From the NCBI GenBank assembly GCA_050948825.1, contig JBMNEO010000005.1, forward strand, positions 100,432-164,431: a DNA stretch of 64,000 nucleotides, written 5' to 3'. Made by a program: the position numbers and the translations under genes. Below the pieces are notes generated by a model. The model was not told the DNA's origin and did not search any database. It saw only the letters and a list, made by a program, of their open reading frames with translations. This document shows positions 14,701 through 46,613 of this stretch, one piece after another. This stretch comes from Dethiobacteria bacterium. Its GTDB lineage: Bacteria > Bacillota > Dethiobacteria > DTU022 > UBA8154. Within the stretch, counting starts at the first letter, position 1, and each line of letters starts with the position of its first letter.

Positions 14701-15717
14701 CTAATCGAAGGCCACCTCCTCAATTTCGCGTGTTTTATCCCTGCGCATCAAGCTTTCCACTGCATCCTGAGGCTTAACGCCCAGAAATAAAACTCTGTAT
14801 ACTTCATCAGTAATAGGCATTTCAACCCCGAGTTTTTGCGCCAGCAGATATGCTGCTTTTGTTGTTTTGATGCCTTCTGCAACCATTTTCATTGAAGATA
14901 TTATCTCTTCCATAGATTTTCCCTTACCGAGCATCATTCCTACGTAACGGTTTCTGCTATGGAGGCTTGTACACGTTACAAAGAGATCTCCTATCCCCGT
15001 AAGCCCGCTGAAAGTTCCGCGCTTTGCACCCAGGGCAAGACCAAGGCGGGTTATCTCCACTATTCCCCGCGTTATGAGTGCTGCCTTGGTATTATCGCCA
15101 TAGTTCATTCCTTCACAGACGCCGGCTCCTATAGCAATTACATTTTTTAAAGCGCCGCCCAGTTCAACCCCAATCATATCAGTATTGGTATAAACCCTGA
15201 AAAGAGAAGTCATAAAGATATCCTGGACAGCTTTAGCGACATTTTCTTCCTCGGCAGCCACTACTGTTGCAGTAGGAATAAACCGGCATACTTCTTCAGC
15301 ATGATTCGGACCGGATAAGACCGCAACCTTACAGGATAAATTGCCAGGAAGCCCCTCGGCTATCACCTGTGAAAGGCGCTTTAAAGACCCTTCAGCCAGC
15401 CCCTTGGCAGCGTTGACAATTATTGTACCCTCCCCGATAAAACCTCTTATCTTATTAATCAGATCCTCAACTGCATGCGAAGGGACGGCGATGACCAGCA
15501 GATCTTTCCCCTGAACCGCCTCTTCCAGATTATTGGTTAGCTTTATATTTTCAGGCAAAGAAACACCGGGCAAATAATCACTGTTTTCGCGTGTCCCGGC
15601 CATTTTTTCCAGTAAGTCCTTCCTTCGTATCCAAAGAACAACTTGAAAACCTTTAGAGCCCAGCAATATTGCCAGTGCTGTTCCCCAGCTTCCCGCTCCG
15701 ATTAATCCTATATTCAT
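14701..15717 (-). CDS. gpsA: NAD(P)H-dependent glycerol-3-phosphate dehydrogenase
   Basis: MNIGLIGAGSWGTALAILL…; the track's 544-aa ORF is an artefactual read-through from out-of-frame plsY into gpsA. Confidence 0.85.
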   Translation of the reverse strand: MNIGLIGAGSWGTALAILLGSKGFQVVLWIRRKDLLEKMAGTRENSDYLPGVSLPENIKLTNNLEEAVQGKDLLVIAVPSHAVEDLINKIRGFIGEGTIIVNAAKGLAEGSLKRLSQVIAEGLPGNLSCKVAVLSGPNHAEEVCRFIPTATVVAAEEENVAKAVQDIFMTSLFRVYTNTDMIGVELGGALKNVIAIGAGVCEGMNYGDNTKAALITRGIVEITRLGLALGAKRGTFSGLTGIGDLFVTCTSLHSRNRYVGMMLGKGKSMEEIISSMKMVAEGIKTTKAAYLLAQKLGVEMPITDEVYRVLFLGVKPQDAVESLMRRDKTREIEEVAFD

Positions 15718-15737
15718 ATCTGGAACAACCCGCCTTT

Positions 15738-16335
15738 TTAAGGAATTTTTACTTTGTCCCCCAGTTTGGATTCCCTGCCCTGTAGCAGCCTTTTTATATT
15801 CGGATAATGTCGCCATAAGAGGATAAAGCAAACGGATAACCCAAAAATAAAGTAATTCAGGGGATAGCTTAATAAATACATGGTAATAGGGATTAATATA
15901 GCTGCAACAATAGTACCAAGTGAAACGTAACGGCTGATTAGAATAATGGCGATAAAAAGGCCAGAATACTACCAGTGTTGGAATGGGTGCCAGGCCCAGG
16001 AATACTCCCAGTGTTGTTGCTGCCCCCCTGCCTCCTTTAAAAGCAAAAAACACAGGCCAGTTGTGACCGATTATTACTGCCAGGCCGCAGAGCAGAATAA
16101 CCCATGTTTCGGTTCCCAGATAAGATGATATAAGAATTGTCAGTAAACCTTTAACCGCATCAAGGATTAAGACGATGATCGCAAATTTAAATCCCATTAA
16201 TCTGGCGATATTTGTTGCTCCAGCGTTCCCGCTTCCAATTTTTCTGATATCCACCCCTTTTTGCGTTTTAGCAATTAAGTAACCAAAAGAAACAGAGCCT
16301 AATAAATAAGAAAGAATGATGAGAAGTACGGACAT
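15738..16335 (-). pseudogene. plsY: Glycerol-3-phosphate acyltransferase PlsY, interrupted by a 1-nt frameshift at about 15957-15965 (T5 homopolymer)
   Basis: N-terminal frame: MSVLL…GSGNAGATN…HNWPVFFAFKGGRGAATTLGVFLGLAPIPTLVV. The +1 frame continues LFIAIILISRYVSLG…WRHYPNIKRLLQGRESKLGDKVKIP* (canonical PlsY C-terminus) and ends at the TAA at 15738-15740. Confidence 0.7.
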
Positions 16336-17694: not shown

Positions 17695-19015
17695 TTAATA
17701 TTGGTTATTTAAATAGTTTCTGATCTCCGCCAGGTGATTTACGGGTACAATCTGAACTTCAAATTTGCCGGCAAGATCCCTCAAGGAAATATCATCCAGG
17801 AAGAGGTCAGTTCCTTCTCTAAGCATAACAGCAGGAATAAAGACAGCCTGACCAAGCTCCTTTTGTGCCAGGCCGGAAAGCAAGTCGCTCCCTGTTAACA
17901 ATCCCGTGACCGTAACATTCCCTCCCCAAAATTTGTTGGCAAGGACATGCAGGTTTGCCTTGATACCTCTGATTTTTTCTAACTCGGCCAGGAATAATTT
18001 TAAAAATGGACCCCCGGATTGACCTGTGACCAGGGAGATCTTTATTTCCCCGGGTAGAGGTGTTCACGGGAGTTTGCTTCCACTGTTCGAGTTCATTTAA
18101 AAATAGTCTTCCCAGCCCCACCCCGTTTTCCACCTGCTCGTAATGCCCGTAATGCTCATCGGAAGGTATGGGAAAACCGGAAAGAAGGTAAAATTCATCA
18201 GCGAGGTACACGAACGGGGTACCCAGGTTCCGTTTAAATTCTTCCTGCAGCTTTGAATAATGCTTTACTATGGTTACTGCATCTGCCGGCGTAATGCTTT
18301 TCAGAGCGGGGAGATCCTGTCTGTATCTGGTTAAACCGACTGGTACCAGGGCTACTGTCCTTAGAGCGGGGTAAAGTTGTGAAAGATCGCCGACCGTCTT
18401 TTGCAAATGTACACCATCATTAAGCCCGGGGCATACTACTATCTGTCCATGCATCACTATCCCCGCAGCAGCCAAGCGGGACAGTTGTTCTAGAATCCGC
18501 CCGGCAAAACGGTTTCCCATCATCTTTACGCCGGATAGTGGGATCGGTAGAATGTATGGAAATATATAGCGGAGATATGCCCCTGCGGATAATCCTCTTT
18601 ATATCCAGTTCTCCCATATTAGTCAAAGTAATATAATTGCCATGAAAAAAGGAAAGGCGATAATCATCATCTTTTTCAAATAATGAGGGCCGCAATGCGG
18701 GAGGCTGCTGGTCAACGAAAGCAAAACACGCAGTGGTTCCGGCAGCGCCTGACCGGCCCGATGGCAGGTGATATAAATTCCAGCCCCAGGTCTTCATCGT
18801 ATGCTTTAGTGACGCGGTATTCCCTGTGCATACCCTCTTTTTTGCGTATGGATAATGTTAGCATCCCGCTCTGCACAAAGATAATAATAATCGAGCAGAT
18901 CGTAAAAAGGCAGGCTGTTAATCCTGAGAAGACTATCACCTGTCTCAATACCCGCCCTGTCAGCCGGTGTTCCTTTTTTTATACCGCTAATTATGAATTT
19001 CCTGTCTCTAGGCAT
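17695..19015 (-). pseudogene. DUF512 (PDZ plus radical-SAM-like) protein gene broken by four frameshifts
   Basis: Five collinear ORF pieces rebuild one DUF512 protein: a PDZ domain (GTPADRAGIETGDSLLRINSLP); a CxxxCxxC-like motif (RRCRNHCVFCF); FFHGNYITLTN…SPLYISIHSTDPTIRRK; MMGNRFAGRILEQL…CPGLNDG; and …TGLLTGSDLL…FLDDISLRDL. The shifts lie at homopolymers near 18840 (T6), 18719 (A3), 18527 (T3) and 18050 (C4G3). Confidence 0.6.
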
Positions 19016-34669: not shown

Positions 34670-35320
34670 CTAAAGAAATGGACTAAGAAAAATAGATATA
34701 ACTGCTTCATAAAGATTTATGATAAAAAATGCAATAGGACCTAAAATGCTTCCCAAACCACCAAAAATAAGGAGTAAAATAAGCAATATAGGTCCATACG
34801 GTTCAATTTGGTAGTAAGTTTGCAGATTCCGCCCTTTCAGCAGTGTGGATAGTATCTTAGATCCGTCAAGAGGCGGCAGGGGTATCATATTAAAAATTGC
34901 AAGAAAAACATTGTAAATAACAAGATTGTACAGGATATTATCAAATACGCTGTACAGGCTGCTTCCATAAATGCTATACGCGGTTATTCTAAATACAATT
35001 AAGAAAAACACTGCCAGGAAACCTAAGATCAAATTTATTCCCGGTCCGGCAAAGGAAACCCAGAACAGGCCTTTCCTGCGATCCTTGAAGTTGAAAGGGT
35101 TAATGGGAACGGGTCTTGCCCAGCCAAAACGGACGATAACCAGCATCAGCAGGCCGATAGGATCCAGGTGAGCTAAAGGGTTTAAAGTTAATCTTCCCTG
35201 GAGTTTGGCAGTCGGATCACCCCAGTAATACGCCATCCTGCCATGGGCATATTCGTGAAAGGTTATTGCAATCAACAAAGCGGGTATTCGTCCCAGTAAA
35301 TCTGTCGGCAATGAAAACAT
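34670..35320 (-). CDS. Site-2 protease family zinc metallopeptidase (M50)
   Basis: 216 aa membrane protein with HEYAHG (HExxH) and a downstream LDG motif. Confidence 0.6.
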   Translation of the reverse strand: MFSLPTDLLGRIPALLIAITFHEYAHGRMAYYWGDPTAKLQGRLTLNPLAHLDPIGLLMLVIVRFGWARPVPINPFNFKDRRKGLFWVSFAGPGINLILGFLAVFFLIVFRITAYSIYGSSLYSVFDNILYNLVIYNVFLAIFNMIPLPPLDGSKILSTLLKGRNLQTYYQIEPYGPILLILLLIFGGLGSILGPIAFFIINLYEAVISIFLSPFL

Positions 35321-36636
35321 TAATTATCTCCTTTCCCGGCTTCTTCACGCATTTTATTATTTTTTATTAGAAAGGTGACAAATTCTAATTCCTCTTCTTT
35401 CCCCGCAACTTTCCCATCAAGGACAGCTTCATAGAGGCTTTTCAGGATCCCGTTAAAGACAGGCCCGGGCTTTAAACCCTTTTCTAATAGATCTTTTCCG
35501 GTTATTAACGGACGCCGACAAACCAGTTCCTGATTAAAATAAGAGATCCGCTCCCGCAGATGCGGATCGCTTTCCAGAACAGTCATGAGCATAAGTCCCT
35601 CTTTCGGCAATTCATGAAGTAGAAAATAAAGCTGCGCCGGGCTGATCGATGCTTTCTTTATTTTAGGTATAGCTTCAGGGACCTTCTTTAAAATAGTAAA
35701 CAGGCTAAGGCGTTCCTTTCTTTTCAAACGCATCAGATGACAAAGGTAAGCAGTATCATGCTCCGATAAATCGTAAAAAAGGGCTGAGAGGTAGAGAACA
35801 AAGAAATTACAGTTTTCTACAAGGGCACTTTCCGCTGGTTCCGCAATGCTCTTTTCTAATAGCAAGAGCCTATCCCTGAGCTGATCATTAAATTCCAAGC
35901 GTGGAAAAATATCCTTGAACAACTGCAGTCCATTCAAGCGCATTAAGACCTTTAAAGGAGAAGGTTCCTTGAAAACCAAGCGTATTTCGTTATAAAGGCG
36001 TTCCTTGCTTACCTTTTCAAGCAATCTTTTCGCTATGGCTTTGCGCAGTAAGAGAAACGTATTTTCCTCAATTATAAAATCAAGCCGTTGTTCAAAGCGA
36101 ACAGCCCGGATAATGCGCAGTGGATCATCTACAAAGCTCAGATTATATAGAACTCTGATAATCCTTCTTTCCAGATCTTCCCGGCCTCCAAAATAATCAT
36201 AAAGGCGCCCAAAATTTTCAGGATTCAGGGCGCAGGCCATGGTATTGATGGTAAAATCCCTGCGGTAAAGATCGTTTTTCAAAGATGAACGTTCAATATC
36301 CGGCAGCGCACCGGGGCCGGCATAAAATTCTTGCCTTGCCGTTACCATATCAAAAATAATTCCCTTGGATAAAATTAATTTGGCTGTACCGAATCTCTCA
36401 AAGCACTGGAGCCGCCCTGGCATTATATTCACTACATATTTTGCAAATTCTGCAGCAGAGCGATCGACAACTAAATCCAGATCACGGTTTTCTTTGCCCA
36501 GGAGAAGATCCCTGACAAAACCTCCCACCGCAAAGACCTTAAAAGACTCCTTCTGGGCTAAATAACCCAGGAGATAAATTGTCGCATGAAGCTCTTTTGA
36601 AAGGGAACTATTAATTAGTGGGGCCAGGTTGGTCAT
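35320..36636 (-). CDS. cca: CCA-adding tRNA nucleotidyltransferase / poly(A) polymerase family protein
   Basis: 438 aa; head domain FAVGGFVRDLLLGKENRDLDLVVD…. Confidence 0.7.
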   Translation of the reverse strand: MTNLAPLINSSLSKELHATIYLLGYLAQKESFKVFAVGGFVRDLLLGKENRDLDLVVDRSAAEFAKYVVNIMPGRLQCFERFGTAKLILSKGIIFDMVTARQEFYAGPGALPDIERSSLKNDLYRRDFTINTMACALNPENFGRLYDYFGGREDLERRIIRVLYNLSFVDDPLRIIRAVRFEQRLDFIIEENTFLLLRKAIAKRLLEKVSKERLYNEIRLVFKEPSPLKVLMRLNGLQLFKDIFPRLEFNDQLRDRLLLLEKSIAEPAESALVENCNFFVLYLSALFYDLSEHDTAYLCHLMRLKRKERLSLFTILKKVPEAIPKIKKASISPAQLYFLLHELPKEGLMLMTVLESDPHLRERISYFNQELVCRRPLITGKDLLEKGLKPGPVFNGILKSLYEAVLDGKVAGKEEELEFVTFLIKNNKMREEAGKGDN

Positions 36637-36883
36637 TATATTAACCCTTTGACTTTAATAAATGCTTGCTTATAAATGCTCGTTAACAAAGGTAACTTGT
36701 CCAAACTTCTCTTAATTATACCATATAATAACAAAAGAAAAAATATCAGGGAAAATCATAAATCATTGCCGCAATTAACCGCTAAACGGAACGGAGGATA
36801 AATCCTGCCCAATTCAAGGCGTTAACAGTTCTTATTGTAATGTATTTGAGAAGAATGAAAGACGATTACATGGTATATTGATA

Positions 36884-36988
36884 ATTACCAGTTAATTTCT
36901 GGGTATTACCAGTAATATTTTAGCAATTACCAGTTATTATTTGGTAACTTCCAGTTAATAATTGGAAATTACCAGTTAATAATTGGTT
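36884..36988. repeat. Tandem array of five 21-bp direct repeats (ATTACCAGTTAATAATTGGNN-like)
   Basis: ATTACCAG/ACTTCCAG cores at 36884, 36905, 36926, 36947 and 36968, exactly 21 bp apart; an inverted copy CTGGTAAT at 37017-37024. Confidence 0.7.
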
Positions 36989-37031
36989 TTGCCAGGCAAG
37001 CAATTAGAACTATTCTCTGGTAATAAATGCC

Positions 37032-38516
37032 TTATTTCTCCCCTGGAGGTGAAGTGTCGGTATCACGTGTCTTTAAAAAAGAAGGTCTGAACCCTTTAAC
37101 CGGTACCGGTTTTCGAAATAAAACATTAAAAAGAGCTTTGCCGTTGAACGGTAGCAGAGGCCATAAATAGGGAAGATTAAATGAGCGGGTAGTAATCAGT
37201 CTGAGGAATACAATCAATAATCCGGCGACAAACCCGTAGATTTGGAAAATCCCCGTTAATAACAACAAAAAAAGATGCACCAGCCTGTTTGCCAAACCCA
37301 GTTCCCAGCTGGGAGTAGAAAAAATTCCTACTGCTACCAGTCCTATATATAGCAATACCTCAGGAACAAAAATCCCTACTGTAACTGCAATATCACCAAT
37401 TAACAGTGCTCCGACAAGCCCCAGGGCAGTGGCAAGCGGAGATGGGGTATGAATACTGGCCATCCGCAATAAATCAAGACCGATATTTGCTAAAATAAAT
37501 TGCAGAAAAAGCGGCAGGGCGGCCTCTCCTTTAGGGCCAATAAATTGTAAAGCCTCCGGCAGCATTTCGCTGTAATCTGCTAATAAAAGCCAGATGGGAA
37601 CCAAAAAAATTGAAATAAAAATGCCCAGCAGGCGAACCCAGCGAATATATACCCCCACAATGGGGTTATGCCTAAATTCCTCTGCATGCTGGATATGGTG
37701 AAAATATGTAACGGGGGCGATCATCACGGAAGGGGATGTATCTACGATAATACACACATGCCCCTCCAGCAGATGCACTGCGGCTACATCCGGCCTTTCC
37801 GTGTAACGTACCTCGGGAAAAGGATTCCAAAAATCAGCGGTGATAAATTCTTCAACTGTTTTTTCCGCCATCGGCAAACCATCAACATCTATTTTTAAAA
37901 GCCTGCTTCTTATCTCCTCCAGGATGGCAGGATTGATGATGTCTTCAATATATAACAGCGTAACATCCGTTAAAGACCTGCTGCCGATAGTAATTGCTTC
38001 GACCCTCAACTTCGGATCCCTCAATCTTCTTCTAATGAGGGCAACGTTAAAGAGCATCGTTTCTACAAAACCATCTCTCGAGCCGCGTGTAATTTTTTCG
38101 ATATCGGGCTCATCGGGTTGCCTGGAAGGGTACTGCCGGATATCTAAAATGATGATTTTTTTTTCGCCATCTATTAAAAATACAAGCGGGCCGCCTAAAA
38201 CCTCATTGGCCGCCTCTTCAAGATTATCAACTAAGGTGATTTCTCCATAAGGTAACAATTGAGCAGTGATTTTCTCCAACGGATTGGGCACAATATCCTC
38301 CTGTTTTGCATCCAGGAGCGTTTGCATGATATAGATAATTACCTCTCCATTGGCAAAAGCGTCCAGAAAAACAAAGGCTACTTTTTTGCGGCCAATTTTA
38401 AACTCCCTTAAAATAACGTCGAAGCTAATACCGATTCCCAGTTCCCTACGAAAATAATCGATATTGTCCTCGATTTTGGGATAGATAAATGTTTTATCTG
38501 CTGTCTTTGTCGGCAT
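37032..38516 (-). CDS. spoVAF: Stage V sporulation protein AF (GerA-family spore germination protein)
   Basis: 494 aa; N-terminal soluble domain plus C-terminal polytopic membrane domain of the GerAA family; last gene of the spoVA cluster. Confidence 0.7.
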   Translation of the reverse strand: MPTKTADKTFIYPKIEDNIDYFRRELGIGISFDVILREFKIGRKKVAFVFLDAFANGEVIIYIMQTLLDAKQEDIVPNPLEKITAQLLPYGEITLVDNLEEAANEVLGGPLVFLIDGEKKIIILDIRQYPSRQPDEPDIEKITRGSRDGFVETMLFNVALIRRRLRDPKLRVEAITIGSRSLTDVTLLYIEDIINPAILEEIRSRLLKIDVDGLPMAEKTVEEFITADFWNPFPEVRYTERPDVAAVHLLEGHVCIIVDTSPSVMIAPVTYFHHIQHAEEFRHNPIVGVYIRWVRLLGIFISIFLVPIWLLLADYSEMLPEALQFIGPKGEAALPLFLQFILANIGLDLLRMASIHTPSPLATALGLVGALLIGDIAVTVGIFVPEVLLYIGLVAVGIFSTPSWELGLANRLVHLFLLLLTGIFQIYGFVAGLLIVFLRLITTRSFNLPYLWPLLPFNGKALFNVLFRKPVPVKGFRPSFLKTRDTDTSPPGEK

Positions 38517-42765: not shown

Positions 42766-42792
42766 ATTCTGCATATAATGGAAATTTCCTGC
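42766..42792 (-). promoter_or_regulatory. Candidate sigma-H-type promoter for spoIIAA-spoIIAB-sigF
   Basis: Minus strand: gcAGGAAAT, then gcaGAAT with AGGA-to-GAAT spacing of 17; preceded by the dacF terminator aagccctccgtgggctt plus U8. Confidence 0.35.
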
Positions 42793-44105: not shown

Positions 44106-45422
44106 TTAACTGGGAAACGGGGGGACTACACCATAAATAAGCGGAAGTTCTTCCACCGTTTCATCGCTAATAGCAAAAGCATTAATTAAGTCTTTGCAAG
44201 CAGCCTGAAGGAGGTCTTCATTATTGCCGTGGATATGGGCTAAAACATCCCCTGCAAGCACCTGGTTCCCAACTTTCTGGTTCAATACAACCCCTACAGA
44301 GGGATCTATCTCTTCCCCCTTGTAAGATCTTCCCGCACCGAGAAGGGCTGCCGCCTTGCCCACCTTTTTCGTGTCAATTTCCGAAATAAAGCCCGCTTTT
44401 GGCGCCTCGATTACTTCAACGAATTTGGCCTGTGGCAATAAGGCTGGATCATCCACACATTGGGCGTCTCCTCCCTGGCAACTGATCATCTGTTTAAACT
44501 TTTCCAGCGCTGCCCCGTTTTTTAACAGTTTGCGGAGTTCAGCCTGACCCTCTTCCGGGTTTCTTACCTTGCCGGCAAGCGCAAGCATATATCCGCCGAG
44601 AACGATACAGAGTGTTTCCGCATCAGCAGGGCCTTCGCCTTTTAAAATACTGATTGCCTCCTTCACCTCCAGGGCGTTTCCAACGGCAAAACCCAGAGGT
44701 TGATTCATATCCGTAACAACTGATACAATTCGCCTGCCCATTTCTTTTCCTATACGGAACATCGTCTCCGCAAGGTAAAACGCCTCTTCCCTGGTCTTCA
44801 TAAAGGAGCCCTGCCCGGTTTTGACATCCAGTAAGATAGCACCGGCCCCGGAGGCAATTTTTTTGCTCATAATGGATGCAGCAATCAGTGAAGTATTTTC
44901 GACTGTTCCTGTGACATCCCGCAGGGCATAGAGTTTCTTATCCGCGGGAGTCATTCTCTCCGTTTGGGCCATTATCGCCAGATCGTTTTCTTTAATCAGC
45001 TCGATAAACCTTTCCAGGGAAAGTTCTGCGCTAAAACCCGGTATGCTCTCCAGTTTATCGATCGTCCCTCCGGTAAAACCCAATCCTCTTCCGGAGACTT
45101 TGGCCACGGGAACCTCTGCAGCAGCTACCAGCGGGGCCAGCGCAAGGGTTGTTTTATCCCCTACCCCGCCGCTGCTATGTTTATCGGCTACCAGTTTCCC
45201 CAGGGAGGAAAAATCAAGCGTCTCCCCCGATTCAGCCAGGGCAGCAGTAAGCGCAGCGGTTTCCTTTGGGCTGAGACCCTGAAAGAAGACAGCCATTAAA
45301 AATGCGGCCATTTGATATTCAGGAATCAAGCCCTTGTTATACTTGTCAATCAGAAAAAATATCTCTTCCGCAGAAAGGCTTTGACCGTCCCTTTTTCTAA
45401 TAATAAGATCTAACGCCCTCAT
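44106..45422 (-). CDS. pdp: Pyrimidine-nucleoside (thymidine) phosphorylase
   Basis: Start MRALDLIIRKRDG…; …DKHSSGGVGDKTTLALAP…. Confidence 0.85.
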   Translation of the reverse strand: MRALDLIIRKRDGQSLSAEEIFFLIDKYNKGLIPEYQMAAFLMAVFFQGLSPKETAALTAALAESGETLDFSSLGKLVADKHSSGGVGDKTTLALAPLVAAAEVPVAKVSGRGLGFTGGTIDKLESIPGFSAELSLERFIELIKENDLAIMAQTERMTPADKKLYALRDVTGTVENTSLIAASIMSKKIASGAGAILLDVKTGQGSFMKTREEAFYLAETMFRIGKEMGRRIVSVVTDMNQPLGFAVGNALEVKEAISILKGEGPADAETLCIVLGGYMLALAGKVRNPEEGQAELRKLLKNGAALEKFKQMISCQGGDAQCVDDPALLPQAKFVEVIEAPKAGFISEIDTKKVGKAAALLGAGRSYKGEEIDPSVGVVLNQKVGNQVLAGDVLAHIHGNNEDLLQAACKDLINAFAISDETVEELPLIYGVVPPFPS

Positions 45423-46613
45423 CCCCGATCCTCTCCTCTTATGAGCAATTTTCCGGCAAAGCTCTGACCGTCCTTTGTTAATTTTCCACATAATAGCTCT
45501 GCCACCGTAGCCCCCAGGTCAGCAAAGCTTTCCCTGGTACCAAGGTTTCCCGGAGTGATCTGATGCCCGTATATAAGCAGCGGTACATATTCTCTGGTAT
45601 GATCCGTCCCTTTAAAAGTTGGATCACAGCCGTGATCGGCGGTTATTACCAGCATATCATCGTCATTTAAACGTTTCATAACTTTTCCTAAAAAACGATC
45701 AAAAATTTCCAGGGCGGCTGCATATCCTTCAACATCGTTTCTATGTCCATAAAGCATATCAAAATCAATTAAATTAGCCCACAATAACCCGTCAAAATTT
45801 TCATCGAGTGCAAAGGAAACGGCTTCCATAATGCTATCATTATCCGAGCCGGGAAGATGACGAGTAACCCCTTTTCCAGAAAAGATATCCATTACTTTGC
45901 CGACAACCCATACCTGCCTTCCATTATTTTGCACCAGATCAAGCAAAGTAGGAGTCAAAAGGAACCAGAGAAAAATCCTTTCTTTCTTTGAGGCGGTAGA
46001 AACTGCCCGGCTTACCCTCGAATGGTCTGGCGATTACCCTGCCTACGGCATGGTTTCCTACAAAAATATTTCTACGTGCCAGGATACACCACTCATACAG
46101 GGTTTCTAATGGAATAATTTTCGTGTGCGCCGCTATTTGAAAAACGCTGTCCGCTGAAGTATAAACGATGGGAAAACCTGTCCGCAGATGTTCCTCCCCT
46201 AGTTTATTAATGATCTCGGTCCCTGAAGCGGCGATATTCCCCAGGGTCTTGCGCCCGATCATATTTTCAAAAGGGCGGATAATTTCGGCGGGAAAACCTT
46301 GCGGGTAAAGGGGAAAAGGGGTTTTCAGGACCAATCCGGCCAGTTCCCAGTGTCCTGAAATCGTGTCTTTGCCAGGGGAAAGCTCAGCCATTTTACCGTA
46401 AGCTCCAAGCAAGTTGTCCACAGGTCCCCTGTGGCTATTATTGTCTAAGATTTTACCCAGTCCCAGGGAAATGAGATTTTCAATCTTCAGCTCCTTTTTA
46501 TGCAGAACATGTCCCAGGGTGTTGCTTCCTGCATCGTTATATTCTTCAGCATCCGGCAGAGCCCCAACTCCTGCACCGTCCAGTACTAGAATAAATGTCC
46601 TGTTTATTGAAAT
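45419..46613 (-). pseudogene. deoB: Phosphopentomutase DeoB with an internal frameshift (about 45940-45950) and no canonical start codon
   Basis: Middle ORF (…[14 protein letters not shown]…[14 protein letters not shown]…[11 protein letters not shown]…) and C-terminal ORF (TPTLLDLV…ITADHGCDPTFKGTDHTREYVPLLIYG) sit in different frames. The N-terminus reads [11 protein letters not shown] with ATA where the conserved Met is expected, and an ATT lies 7 nt after GGGGG. Confidence 0.6.

What the first reader, a model, noticed from the sequence alone, without database searches (positions are those of the whole stretch)
36884..37024. Exact 21-bp periodic array of five ATTACCAGTTAATAATTGG-like repeats plus one inverted copy
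ATTACCAG (once ACTTCCAG) recurs at 36884, 36905, 36926, 36947 and 36968, exactly 21 bp apart (two helical turns). The last two units share a 17-mer. An inverted CTGGTAAT sits at 37017-37024, adjacent to the spoVAF stop. The array lies in the 395-bp spacer downstream of the spoVA cluster and upstream of cca. Phased direct repeats like this are typical of iterons or of cooperative arrays for a regulator binding one DNA face. It is not a CRISPR array, because there are no unique spacers.
Basis: seen in the sequence. Interest (0 to 1): 0.55.

Follow-up and report, generated by a model that had tools for sequence, protein, structure and literature searches.

The report
Conserved phased operator array after spoVAF
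A real 21-bp tandem array just after the spore gene spoVAF has been kept at that spot across about ten uncultured Dethiobacteria-like species; it looks like a row of docking sites for one DNA-binding protein, most plausibly of the AbrB/SpoVT type, but the protein and its function are not yet shown.

Summary
The repeat is real. Five 21-bp units sit at the stated coordinates. A sixth, degenerate unit lies in phase, and there is a terminal remnant, so the array spans window 36862-36995.

It is not a neutral minisatellite. Ten related species carry 3-6 units at the same place, directly after spoVAF. Their cca proteins are only about 50% identical at the far end of this set. 29 of 31 unit spacings are exactly 21 bp.

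The conserved profile is T-n-M-CTGG-n-AATT-n-CCA plus an AT-rich linker. That is a 12-bp dyad, TGGnA-AT-TnCCA, with two information-free positions.

Scans of 185,579 genomes and of a metagenome collection found this kind of non-coding array only at this locus. Where two genes were inserted before cca, the array stayed with spoVAF. The cca promoter is conserved with or without the array.

RNA pairing shows no covariation. There is no rep gene and no plasmid match.

Best reading: a cooperative, one-face protein-binding array at the boundary between the spoVA operon and the next operon. The half-site matches the published TGGNA motif of AbrB/Abh, but the spacing does not. A LytTR-type reading fits this species but not its distant relatives.

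The binder and the function remain inferred. Moderately interesting.

The parts
36862..36995 (.). Whole phased array: six 21-bp units plus a terminal remnant. On the gene (minus) strand each unit reads T-n-(A/C)-CTGG-n-AATT-n-CCA followed by an AT-rich linker.
   Evidence: TRF; in-phase CCAG/CTGG chains; profile of 39 distinct units from 10 species.
36983..36995 (-). Unit 1, next to spoVAF and degenerate: CTGGCAAAACCAA. It lies 20 bp from unit 2. In L063 it is canonical (CTGGCACAATCCA) and 21 bp from unit 2.
36963..36975 (-). Unit 2 core: CTGGTAATTTCCA, a perfect match to the consensus dyad.
36942..36954 (-). Unit 3 core: CTGGAAGTTACCA.
36921..36933 (-). Unit 4 core: CTGGTAATTGCTA.
36900..36912 (-). 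Unit 5 core: CTGGTAATACCCA.
36879..36891 (-). Unit 6 core: CTGGTAATTATCA.
36862..36878 (-). Terminal remnant unit (ATATACCATGTAATCG). It keeps TACCA and TG-TAAT. The block is conserved in L063, L007 and L008, and partly in L011.
   Evidence: read directly from the sequence
37032..38516 (-). spoVAF (GerA family), last gene of the spoVA cluster. In every species the array begins 24-128 bp after its stop codon.
   Evidence: Pfam PF03323, E = 3e-154; distances
35320..36636 (-). cca (CCA-adding tRNA nucleotidyltransferase), first gene of the downstream cca-M50 peptidase-trpS-scpA operon.
36715..36723 (-). Extended -10 element (TGGTATAAT) of the presumed cca promoter. It is present in relatives with and without an upstream array, so it does not depend on the array.
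36989..37016 (+). Candidate + strand (antisense to spoVAF) promoter-like site: TTGCCA-16-TATTCT. The -35 is simply unit 1. The -10 is not conserved: L063 has TGTTCT.
37017..37024 (+). It is out of phase and not conserved, and is probably not part of the element.

Best explanation
**What it is.** The array is a cis-acting DNA element: 5-7 docking sites for one oligomerising DNA-binding protein. Each 21-bp unit carries a 12-bp dyad, TGGnA-AT-TnCCA, and a 9-bp AT-rich linker. Because the period is two helical turns, all dyads lie on the same face of the helix. The A/T-rich segments (the AATT dyad centre and the linker) alternate every ~10.5 bp, which favours cooperative side-by-side binding or wrapping.

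**Most likely binder.** A swapped-hairpin AbrB/Abh/SpoVT-family protein. Published AbrB/Abh sites are pairs of TGGNA with a free N, joined by AT-rich DNA. An AbrB tetramer is modelled to cover ~20 bp.

**Most likely function.** The element is tied to the 3' end of spoVAF, not to the cca promoter. I propose that the bound array marks the boundary between the forespore-specific spoVA operon and the next transcription unit. It would act as a roadblock or insulator in place of an intrinsic terminator, and could also occlude any promoter that abuts it.

**Shown**
- The array, its phase and its profile.
- Purifying selection on the profile.
- Restriction to this one locus and this lineage.
- Lack of RNA covariation.

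**Inferred**
- That a protein binds.
- Which protein binds.
- The boundary function.
For: **Conservation**
- Ten species carry 3-6 units directly after spoVAF. Their cca identity to the window ranges from 90% down to about 50%, and the surrounding spacer is otherwise unalignable.
- 29 of 31 unit spacings are exactly 21 bp.

**Profile of 39 distinct units**
- A at +5 is present in 39 of 39 units. CTGG was the anchor used to define the units, so its invariance is not independent evidence.
- CCA is present in 31-33 of 39 units, and T at -3 in 34 of 39.
- The two N positions carry about 0 bits of information.

**Closest species pair**
- Between the window and L063, all six substitutions inside units 2-5 fall at unconstrained positions: N4 three times, N9 once, -1 (A to C) once, linker once.

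**Uniqueness**
- The genome-collection and viral scans together gave 113 matching stretches. Only nine lie outside an open frame of at least 300 nt. Seven of those nine are spoVAF-adjacent arrays of this clade; the other two are cut by contig ends.
- The metagenome scan added only more spoVAF-cca arrays.

**Link to spoVAF rather than cca**
- In L016 two DUF2229 genes separate spoVAF from cca, and the array stays after spoVAF.
- The cca promoter TGGTATAAT is conserved with or without the array.

**Terminators**
- Nine of the ten array-bearing spacers have no intrinsic terminator. In the tenth (L071), array units plus a T-run form one.
- L017 has no array and does have a terminator.

**Literature**
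- AbrB/Abh bind pairs of TGGNA joined by A/T-rich DNA. Abh homomer sites are TGGNA-W-TNCCA. Long footprints contain multiple TGGNA motifs, and a tetramer is modelled on ~20 bp (PMC3025583 and PMC3738160).
- The array is the densest TGGNA/TNCCA cluster in the 64 kb: 9 per 140 bp, against a mean of 1.3 and sd of 1.1.
Against: - No binding data exist, and no AbrB/SpoVT gene is in the window.
- The spacing differs from B. subtilis sites. Here the half-sites are 2 bp and 9 bp apart. AbrB sites use 4-5 bp and Abh sites use 1 bp.
- TGGAA-type half-sites are also used by other regulator families, such as IclR/AllR (my own knowledge). The half-site match is therefore suggestive, not diagnostic.
- The left half (CTGGnA) is more conserved than the right half, and T at -3 is conserved. 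An asymmetric 10-bp site is not excluded.
- Promoters of other forespore genes in the window (dacF, spoVA, spoIVB, ytfJ) lack the dyad. That is unexpected for a regulon-wide SpoVT operator.
- The boundary/roadblock function rests only on position and on the absence of terminators.
Confidence: 0.45

Rival explanations
1. The array is a LytTR-type (AgrA/ComE/LRS) activator site. Read on the + strand, it is a run of 9-bp direct repeats (ACCAGTTAA and the like) with 12-bp spacers. These would recruit a LytTR regulator to a promoter firing rightwards, producing an RNA antisense to spoVAF or a small leaderless ORF at 37027-37170.
For: - LytTR sites are 9-bp direct repeats separated by 12 bp (sometimes 11-13), which gives a 21-bp period. 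They lie about 10 bp upstream of a -35. Listed examples include ACCACTTAC and, for B. cereus, ACCAGTTAT (PMC6193735).
- The window's + strand units ACCAGTTAA, ACCAGTAAT, ACCAGTTAT, TCCAGTTAA and ACCAGTTAA fit this pattern well.
- A TTGCCA-16-TATTCT promoter-like site starts 9 bp after the last good repeat.
- This orientation would explain why the array is tied to the 3' end of spoVAF.
Against: - In the distant relatives the units read CCCAGGGAA or GCCAGGGAA, so the GTT/CTT core is not kept.
- The supposed 12-bp spacer contains conserved TGG and AATT, which a LytTR monomer site does not explain.
- The -10 is lost in the closest other species (TGTTCT in L063). No element sits at a fixed distance in the other species. 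In L038 the array ends only 24 bp from the spoVAF stop codon.
- No protein with a LytTR domain is encoded in the 64 kb.
- Every LytTR promoter I read about or recall carries two repeats, not five to seven (and my own knowledge).
Confidence: 0.17
2. The array works as RNA. It would be transcribed as the 3' UTR of the spoVA operon, and the quasi-palindromic units would pair with each other into long hairpins. These would stabilise the mRNA 3' end or terminate transcription, much as REP/BIME elements do.
For: - The sense RNA folds to -44 kcal/mol, z = -4.8 against shuffles.
- Array-bearing spacers lack separate intrinsic terminators. In L071 two units plus a T-run form a terminator-like hairpin.
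- In L016 the array ends 42 nt before the next start codon, so it may well be transcribed.
Against: - Base identity (TGG, A, CCA) is conserved, rather than complementarity alone.
- The free positions do not covary. Within a dyad, N4-N9 form a Watson-Crick pair in 2 of 24 units. Between adjacent units, 19 Watson-Crick plus 10 G-U pairs occur in 62, against about 23 expected by chance.
- Any array of palindromic units would fold well, so the z-score is a by-product.
- Rfam gives only sub-threshold chance hits.
- A U-tract after the array is not consistently present.
Confidence: 0.1
3. The array is a chromosome-architecture or centromere-like site. It would be a single, position-conserved array bound by a structural protein during sporulation or segregation, analogous to parC-type tandem repeats or to the position-conserved RefZ-binding motifs of Bacillus. 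Alternatively, it is a set of replication iterons.
For: - There is one array per genome, and its position is conserved.
- The tandem 20-22-bp repeat architecture resembles iterons and type II centromeres (my own knowledge).
- scpA and scpB lie in the downstream operon.
Against: - No rep, par or relaxase gene is nearby.
- There is no plasmid similarity.
- The related Dethiobacter MAG (L014) has lost the array.
- No evidence bears on chromosome position.
Confidence: 0.07
4. The array is a neutral minisatellite produced by replication slippage and has no function.
For: Copy number differs between species (3-6 units). It also differs between L007 and L008, two assemblies that encode an identical cca protein and carry 3 and 4 units.
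Against: - The motif, its phase and its location persist to a cca identity of about 50%, while the surrounding spacer is unalignable.
- Substitutions fall only at profile-free positions.
Confidence: 0.03

Closest known systems
AbrB/Abh (and paralogue SpoVT) binding regions of Bacillus subtilis
   Same: - The half-site is TGGNA/TNCCA with a truly degenerate N.
- Half-sites occur in pairs joined by A/T-rich DNA.
- Long sites contain many motifs.
- A tetramer is modelled on ~20 bp, close to the 21-bp unit.
- The host is a spore-forming Firmicute, and the array lies next to spoVA. SpoVT is reported to enhance spoVA expression in B. subtilis (PMC3025583, PMC3738160, PMC5061766).
   Different: - Half-sites here are 2 bp and 9 bp apart, not 4-5 bp (AbrB) or 1 bp (Abh).
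- The papers read here describe no perfectly phased 5-7-unit tandem array for AbrB.
- The array lies after a gene, not at a promoter.
- The binder is untested, and no SpoVT consensus exists to compare against.
LytTR response-regulator / LRS promoters (AgrA, ComE, HdrR/BrsR, VirR)
   Same: - 9-bp direct repeat plus 12-bp spacer gives a 21-bp period.
- The window's ACCAGTTAA/T resembles the listed ACCAGTTAT and ACCACTTAC repeats.
   Different: - Five to seven repeats instead of two.
- The core is not conserved in relatives.
- Conserved bases lie inside the 'spacer'.
- There is no conserved downstream promoter.
- No LytTR gene is nearby.
Tandem phased operators bound cooperatively on one face (ARG boxes of ArgR/AhrC with a 20-21-bp period; OmpR F1-F2-F3 boxes)
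   Same: Palindromic or bipartite sites of about 20 bp are repeated head-to-tail with a two-turn period and have AT-rich centres (my own knowledge).
   Different: - The half-site sequences differ.
- Those arrays sit at promoters of their regulons.
- They have 2-3 units.
Plasmid iterons and type II (parC) centromeres
   Same: Tandem direct repeats of 17-22 bp in helical phase.
   Different: - The context is chromosomal, syntenic housekeeping genes.
- No rep or par genes are present.
- There is no plasmid match.
REP/BIME palindromic units in 3' UTRs
   Same: Palindromic units lie between convergent or consecutive operons and could form RNA hairpins.
   Different: - A single locus per genome rather than hundreds of copies.
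- Sequence identity, not complementarity, is conserved.
- No covariation is seen.

Membership tests
AbrB/Abh/SpoVT-type binding region | Half-site TGGNA (or TNCCA) with a degenerate fourth base | tested here: met
   In the profile of 39 units, A5 is present in 39 of 39 and the N positions carry 0.11 and 0.01 bits. T-n-CCA is mirrored on the other side. Motif definition from PMC3025583 and PMC3738160.
AbrB/Abh/SpoVT-type binding region | Two half-sites separated by 4-5 bp of A/T (AbrB) or by 1 bp (Abh homomer) | tested here: not met
   Here the arrangement is TGGnA-AT-TnCCA (2 bp) and TnCCA-N9-TGGnA (9 bp). A 5-bp gap appears only if the degenerate T-n-M-C-T is counted as a half-site.
AbrB/Abh/SpoVT-type binding region | A/T-rich linkers and multiple motifs covering a long (25-80 bp or more) region | tested here: met
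   Linker columns are almost entirely A or T. The array is the densest TGGNA cluster in the 64 kb.
AbrB/Abh/SpoVT-type binding region | Bound by a swapped-hairpin (SpoVT-AbrB domain) protein | not testable with these tools
   No such gene is in the window. The rest of the genomes could not be retrieved.
LytTR regulator site | Imperfect 9-bp direct repeats separated by 12 (11-13) bp | tested here: met
   21-bp period in 29 of 31 spacings. Definition from PMC6193735.
LytTR regulator site | Repeat sequence fits the family consensus (ACCNCTTAN / xxCAGTTxx) across orthologous sites | tested here: inconclusive
   It fits in the window and its close relatives (ACCAGTTAA). It is not kept in L016, L026, L038 or L071 (CCCAGGGAA).
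LytTR regulator site | Repeats lie about 10 bp upstream of the -35 of the regulated promoter and read towards it | tested here: inconclusive
   The window has TTGCCA-16-TATTCT 9 bp after the last repeat. The -10 is not conserved in L063, and no fixed element is seen elsewhere.
LytTR regulator site | LytTR-domain regulator encoded at or near the site (autoregulated operon) | tested here: not met
   No PF04397 hit among the ORFs scanned, which are nearly all ORFs of at least 90 aa in the 64-kb window; a few were left out of the Pfam scans.
Plasmid/chromosome iterons or parC centromere | Tandem 17-22-bp direct repeats | tested here: met
Plasmid/chromosome iterons or parC centromere | Adjacent rep/par gene, a DNA-unwinding element or DnaA boxes, and residence on a replicon that needs them | tested here: not met
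   The neighbours are spoVA, cca, an M50 peptidase, trpS and scpAB in all species. No plasmid similarity.
Structured RNA / terminator | Base pairs maintained by compensatory change | tested here: not met
   N4-N9 form a Watson-Crick pair in 2 of 24 units. Inter-unit pairs are 29 of 62, against about 23 expected. No Rfam family matches.
CRISPR array | Repeats separated by unique spacers of similar length | tested here: not met
   The units are contiguous, with no spacers.

The most novel reading that the evidence does not exclude
The array is the natural high-affinity operator of the forespore regulator SpoVT, or of a lineage-specific AbrB paralogue. Five to seven tetramers would polymerise on phased TGGnA-AT-TnCCA dyads to form a protein roadblock. 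That roadblock would end sigma-G-driven spoVA transcription and insulate the housekeeping cca-trpS-scpAB operon. This would supply the first clear consensus site for SpoVT, for which none has been defined (PMC5061766), and an example of a protein array acting as an operon terminator.
Probability: 0.15. Interest if true: 0.65.

Novelty: new variant of a known kind. Interest (0 to 1): 0.45.

Why it matters
If a protein does bind here, the array gives an unusually clean, evolution-derived profile. It shows which bases matter, which are free, and that the phase is exactly two helical turns. The regulator class it points to has notoriously fuzzy site definitions: AbrB sites are loosely defined, and SpoVT has no consensus at all.

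It would also show that a multi-copy operator can sit at the end of a sporulation operon rather than at a promoter. That suggests protein-mediated operon boundaries in spore formers that lack an intrinsic terminator there.

The profile can be used directly for DAP-seq or EMSA design. It can also be used to scan complete Dethiobacteria genomes.

Tried and rejected
- **Regulator gene nearby.** I ran Pfam on nearly all ORFs of at least 90 aa in the window, by concatenating them into pseudo-proteins; a few ORFs were left out. No LytTR, AbrB or other plausible regulator lies next to the array. Only Spo0A and sigma-F, far away, turned up.\n- **Known RNA family.** Rfam over 36000-37600 gave only sub-threshold chance hits to miRNA hairpins.\n- **RNA structure.** The region folds well, but the two covariation tests failed.\n- **Antisense promoter.** I lined up the spoVAF-proximal side of the array in ten species. 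No conserved -10 appeared.\n- **Iteron or plasmid origin.** No plasmid match. The five viral-contig matches all lie inside open reading frames.\n- **Regulon search.** The strict dyad occurs nowhere else in the window or in the relatives' loci, apart from one site in L016. The relaxed search found only 29529 (coding) and 42779 (upstream of spoIIAA), each with one mismatch.\n- **Genome scan.** Most of the 108 stretches were 7-residue coding repeats (CTGGAAnnnGCCAA, reading L-E-x-A-N) or other open-frame 21-bp tandem repeats. They are not relatives of this element.\n- **Metagenome scan.** The 2-unit scan gave mostly unrelated operator pairs and satellites.\n- **Leader peptide with Trp codons for trpS.** Rejected, because TGG is followed by TAA in most units.\n- **Other known motifs.** I compared sigma-54 (-24/-12), the GerE, SpoIIID, CodY, Fur, ARG-box and DasR/NagR motifs by eye. 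None fits the constrained positions.\n- **AbrB ChIP tables.** The supplementary tables were not available.\n- **Wrong-strand alignment.** One search used the wrong strand for L063. It was redone.

Full report
**1.

Tandem Repeats Finder reports a period-21 array at 36883-36986: 5.0 copies, score 108, consensus AATTACCAGTTAATATTTGGA. ATTACCAGT occurs four times in the 64 kb, all in the array, against 0.39 expected. The 19-mer with up to 3 mismatches hits four times against 0.01 expected. CCAG recurs at 36888, 36909, 36930, 36951 and 36972, and again in phase at 36992.

Three corrections apply.
- The last two units share a 15-nt exact run, not 17.
- There is a sixth, degenerate unit (TTTGCCAGG at 36989) and a terminal remnant at 36862-36878.
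- The inverted CTGGTAAT at 37017-37024 exists, but it is out of phase and not conserved.

Independent short-read assemblies that encode the identical cca protein carry the same 395-bp spacer with at most one substitution. The array is therefore not an assembly error. That check matters, because the window shows three likely frameshifted genes (see section 8).

**2. Context**

All neighbouring genes lie on the minus strand.
- On one side: spoVAC, spoVAD, spoVAEB and spoVAF (GerA family, 37032-38516).
- Then the 395-bp spacer that holds the array.
- On the other side: cca (35320-36636), an M50 peptidase, trpS and scpA.

The rest of the window is the classic Firmicute sporulation neighbourhood: spo0A, spoIVB, recN, xerD, spoIIM, the spoIIA operon with sigF, dacB, ytfJ, spoIVA, spoIIP and aro genes. 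No LytTR-domain or AbrB-domain protein is encoded among the ORFs scanned. Homologues of cca place the organism among uncultured Dethiobacteria-like Bacillota.

**3. Comparative evidence**

Relatives were fetched through cca homologues and through a DNA-pattern scan of 185,579 species genomes. Ten species carry the array: the window/L003, L063, L007, L008, L010, L011, L016, L026, L038 and L071. In each it has 3-6 units and begins 24-128 bp after the spoVAF stop codon. cca identity to the window falls from 90% to about 50%, and spoVAF identity to about 71%. 29 of 31 spacings are exactly 21 bp. The rest of the spacer is unalignable between the distant species.

The profile of 39 distinct units, read on the gene strand, is T(-3) n (A/C) C T G G n A A T T n C C A, followed by five or six A/T positions.
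- A at +5 is present in 39 of 39 units. CTGG was the anchor used to pick the units, so its invariance is not independent.
- CCA is present in 31-33 of 39 units.
- T at -3 is present in 34 of 39 units.
- The two n positions inside the dyad carry 0.11 and 0.01 bits.

Between the window and its nearest other species (L063, spacer about 93% identical), all six substitutions inside units 2-5 fall at positions the profile marks as free: N4 three times, N9 once, -1 (A to C) once, linker once.

Copy number does change by whole units. L007 and L008 encode an identical cca protein and have 3 and 4 units. The array therefore turns over by slippage, but its motif and phase are under purifying selection.

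**4. The element belongs to one locus and one lineage**

The genome-collection and viral scans together gave 113 matching stretches. Only nine lie outside an open frame of at least 300 nt. Seven of these are the spoVAF-adjacent arrays, and the other two are cut by contig ends. The remaining stretches are heptad-type coding repeats or other open-frame repeats.

A 2-unit scan of the metagenome collection added only further spoVAF-cca arrays (L149, L215, L236) among unrelated sequences. The strict dyad TGGnAWWWnCCA occurs nowhere else in the 64-kb window.

**5. The array is tied to spoVAF, not to cca**

- In L016 two DUF2229 genes lie between spoVAF and cca. The array remains directly after spoVAF and ends 42 nt before the first inserted gene.
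- In the Dethiobacter MAG L014/L015, with the same insertion, spoVAF and the next gene are 3 nt apart and the array is absent.
- L017 lacks spoVAF and lacks the array.
- The presumed cca promoter (extended -10, TGGTATAAT) is present in all relatives whether or not an array lies upstream. The distance from array to promoter varies from about 45 to about 190 bp.
- None of the array-bearing spacers has a separate intrinsic terminator. In L071 two units plus a T-run form one. L017, without the array, has a terminator.

**6. What kind of element it is**

RNA structure. The sense RNA folds well (z = -4.8), but this is expected for any run of palindromic units. The free positions do not covary, either within a dyad (2 of 24 Watson-Crick) or between adjacent units (29 of 62 paired, against about 23 expected). 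What is conserved is base identity, not complementarity. Rfam finds nothing.

Iterons or centromeres lack the required genes, and there is no plasmid similarity.

This leaves a DNA site for a sequence-specific protein. The dyad TGGnA-AT-TnCCA repeats every two helical turns. A/T-rich segments alternate about every 10.5 bp. This geometry places all sites on one face and favours cooperative binding or wrapping.

**7. Which protein**

Two known architectures come close.

(a) AbrB/Abh. In-vivo and SELEX work defines their sites as pairs of TGGNA with a degenerate N, joined by A/T-rich DNA, in direct, inverted or everted orientation.
- Abh homomers use TGGNA-W-TNCCA.
- Long footprints hold multiple motifs.
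- A tetramer is modelled on ~20 bp (PMC3025583, PMC3738160).
- SpoVT is the forespore paralogue. It enhances spoVA expression in B. subtilis and has no defined consensus site (PMC5061766).
- The half-site, the free N, the A/T linkers and the unit size all match. The array is the densest TGGNA cluster in the window.
- The spacing (2 bp and 9 bp) does not match the 4-5 bp or 1 bp reported.

(b) LytTR regulators. They use 9-bp direct repeats with 12-bp spacers, about 10 bp upstream of a -35. Listed repeats include ACCAGTTAT (PMC6193735).
- The window's + strand units (ACCAGTTAA and the like) fit well.
- A TTGCCA-16-TATTCT site follows them. This would predict transcription antisense to spoVAF.
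- Against this: the distant relatives read CCCAGGGAA, the 'spacer' holds conserved TGG and AATT, and the -10 is already lost in L063.
- In addition, no LytTR gene is nearby.

I therefore rank the AbrB/SpoVT-type reading first and LytTR second. The identity of the binder remains inferred.

**8. Proposed mechanism and verdict**

I propose that several copies of one oligomeric regulator bind side by side on the array. They would form a nucleoprotein block at the end of the forespore-expressed spoVA operon. That block would set the operon boundary by roadblock or insulation, and it would occlude any abutting promoter. One possible example is the weak CATAAT site that overlaps the last unit before the inserted genes in L016.
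- Shown: anatomy, conservation, uniqueness, linkage to spoVAF, absence of terminators, absence of RNA covariation.
- Inferred: that a protein binds, which family it belongs to, and the boundary role.

Verdict: a real, selected, lineage-specific cis element. It is a new variant of the known kind 'phased multi-copy operator'. It is of moderate interest, and of higher interest if it proves to be a SpoVT operator.

Caution: three genes in the window look frameshifted (plsY-gpsA, a DUF512/radical-SAM gene and deoB). The window's assembly therefore has some indel errors, but the array itself is confirmed by independent assemblies.

Noticed in passing
window 36696-36702 (minus strand); also L063, L007, L010, L011, L016: GGACAAG lies 12-19 nt downstream of the cca -10 element (TGGTATAAT) in six species of the window's subclade. 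From memory, it matches the core of the SpoIIID (mother-cell regulator) box. The cca-trpS-scpAB operon may therefore be repressed in the mother cell. The distant relatives L026, L038, L071, L014 and L017 lack it.
   Followed up: partly
window 14701-16335 (-), 17819-18797 (-), 45419-46421 (-): Three probable frameshifts. (1) A 544-aa ORF fuses a truncated PlsY domain to GpsA. (2) A DUF512/radical-SAM-like gene is split into two overlapping ORFs. (3) A phosphopentomutase-like (Metalloenzyme) gene is split into two overlapping ORFs. These suggest indel errors in the assembly, or pseudogenes.
   Followed up: no
L007 2757-3001 versus L008 2735-3001: Two assemblies that encode an identical cca protein differ by one whole repeat unit (3 versus 4 units; spacers of 243 and 265 bp). 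This is copy-number polymorphism of the array within a species.
   Followed up: yes
window 42779-42791 (minus strand): A single near-dyad, CAGGAAATTTCCA (one mismatch to CTGGnAATTnCCA), lies in the spacer between the dacF-like gene and spoIIAA, which is the spoIIA promoter region. It may be chance.
   Followed up: no
L025, L052, L125 (Spirochaetes); L056/L081 (Fimbriimonadales); L037, L093, L113, L031, L122, L092: Long 21-bp tandem arrays in unrelated phyla have strongly palindromic 12-bp cores, for example TGGAACGTTCCA, TGGGACGTCCCA and TGGGACATCCCA. All lie in frames open for at least 300 nt, so they may be 7-residue coding repeats. Their palindromy is nevertheless striking.
   Followed up: partly
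L211 (metagenome contig, 2038 bp): Nearly the whole contig is a 21-bp satellite (CTTCCCTGGGAAAATCCAAAT, about 85 copies). It probably derives from a eukaryote or another non-bacterial source in the metagenome.
   Followed up: no
L176 3008-3041, L237 1500-1533, L160/L213, L204/L208/L225/L226, L217: Pairs of perfect 12-14-bp palindromes (CTGGTATATACCAG, CTGGGAATTCCCA, CTGGGATATCCCA, CTGGAAATTTCCAG) lie exactly 21 bp apart in metagenome contigs, two of them (L176, L237) just upstream of a possible start codon. Two-unit operators of the same geometry therefore exist in other, unidentified organisms.
   Followed up: no
L014/L015/L016 about 820-2920: Two tandem DUF2229/HGD-D-like genes (benzoyl-CoA reductase / 2-hydroxyglutaryl-CoA dehydratase activator-related) are inserted between spoVAF and cca in one subclade. 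In L014 they are translationally coupled to spoVAF by a 3-nt gap.
   Followed up: partly
L055 (CAZQXY010000005.1): This contig carries sigF-spoVA-cca synteny typical of spore-forming Bacillota, yet its record is titled 'uncultured Desulfovibrionaceae bacterium'. The bin is probably mislabelled or contaminated.
   Followed up: no
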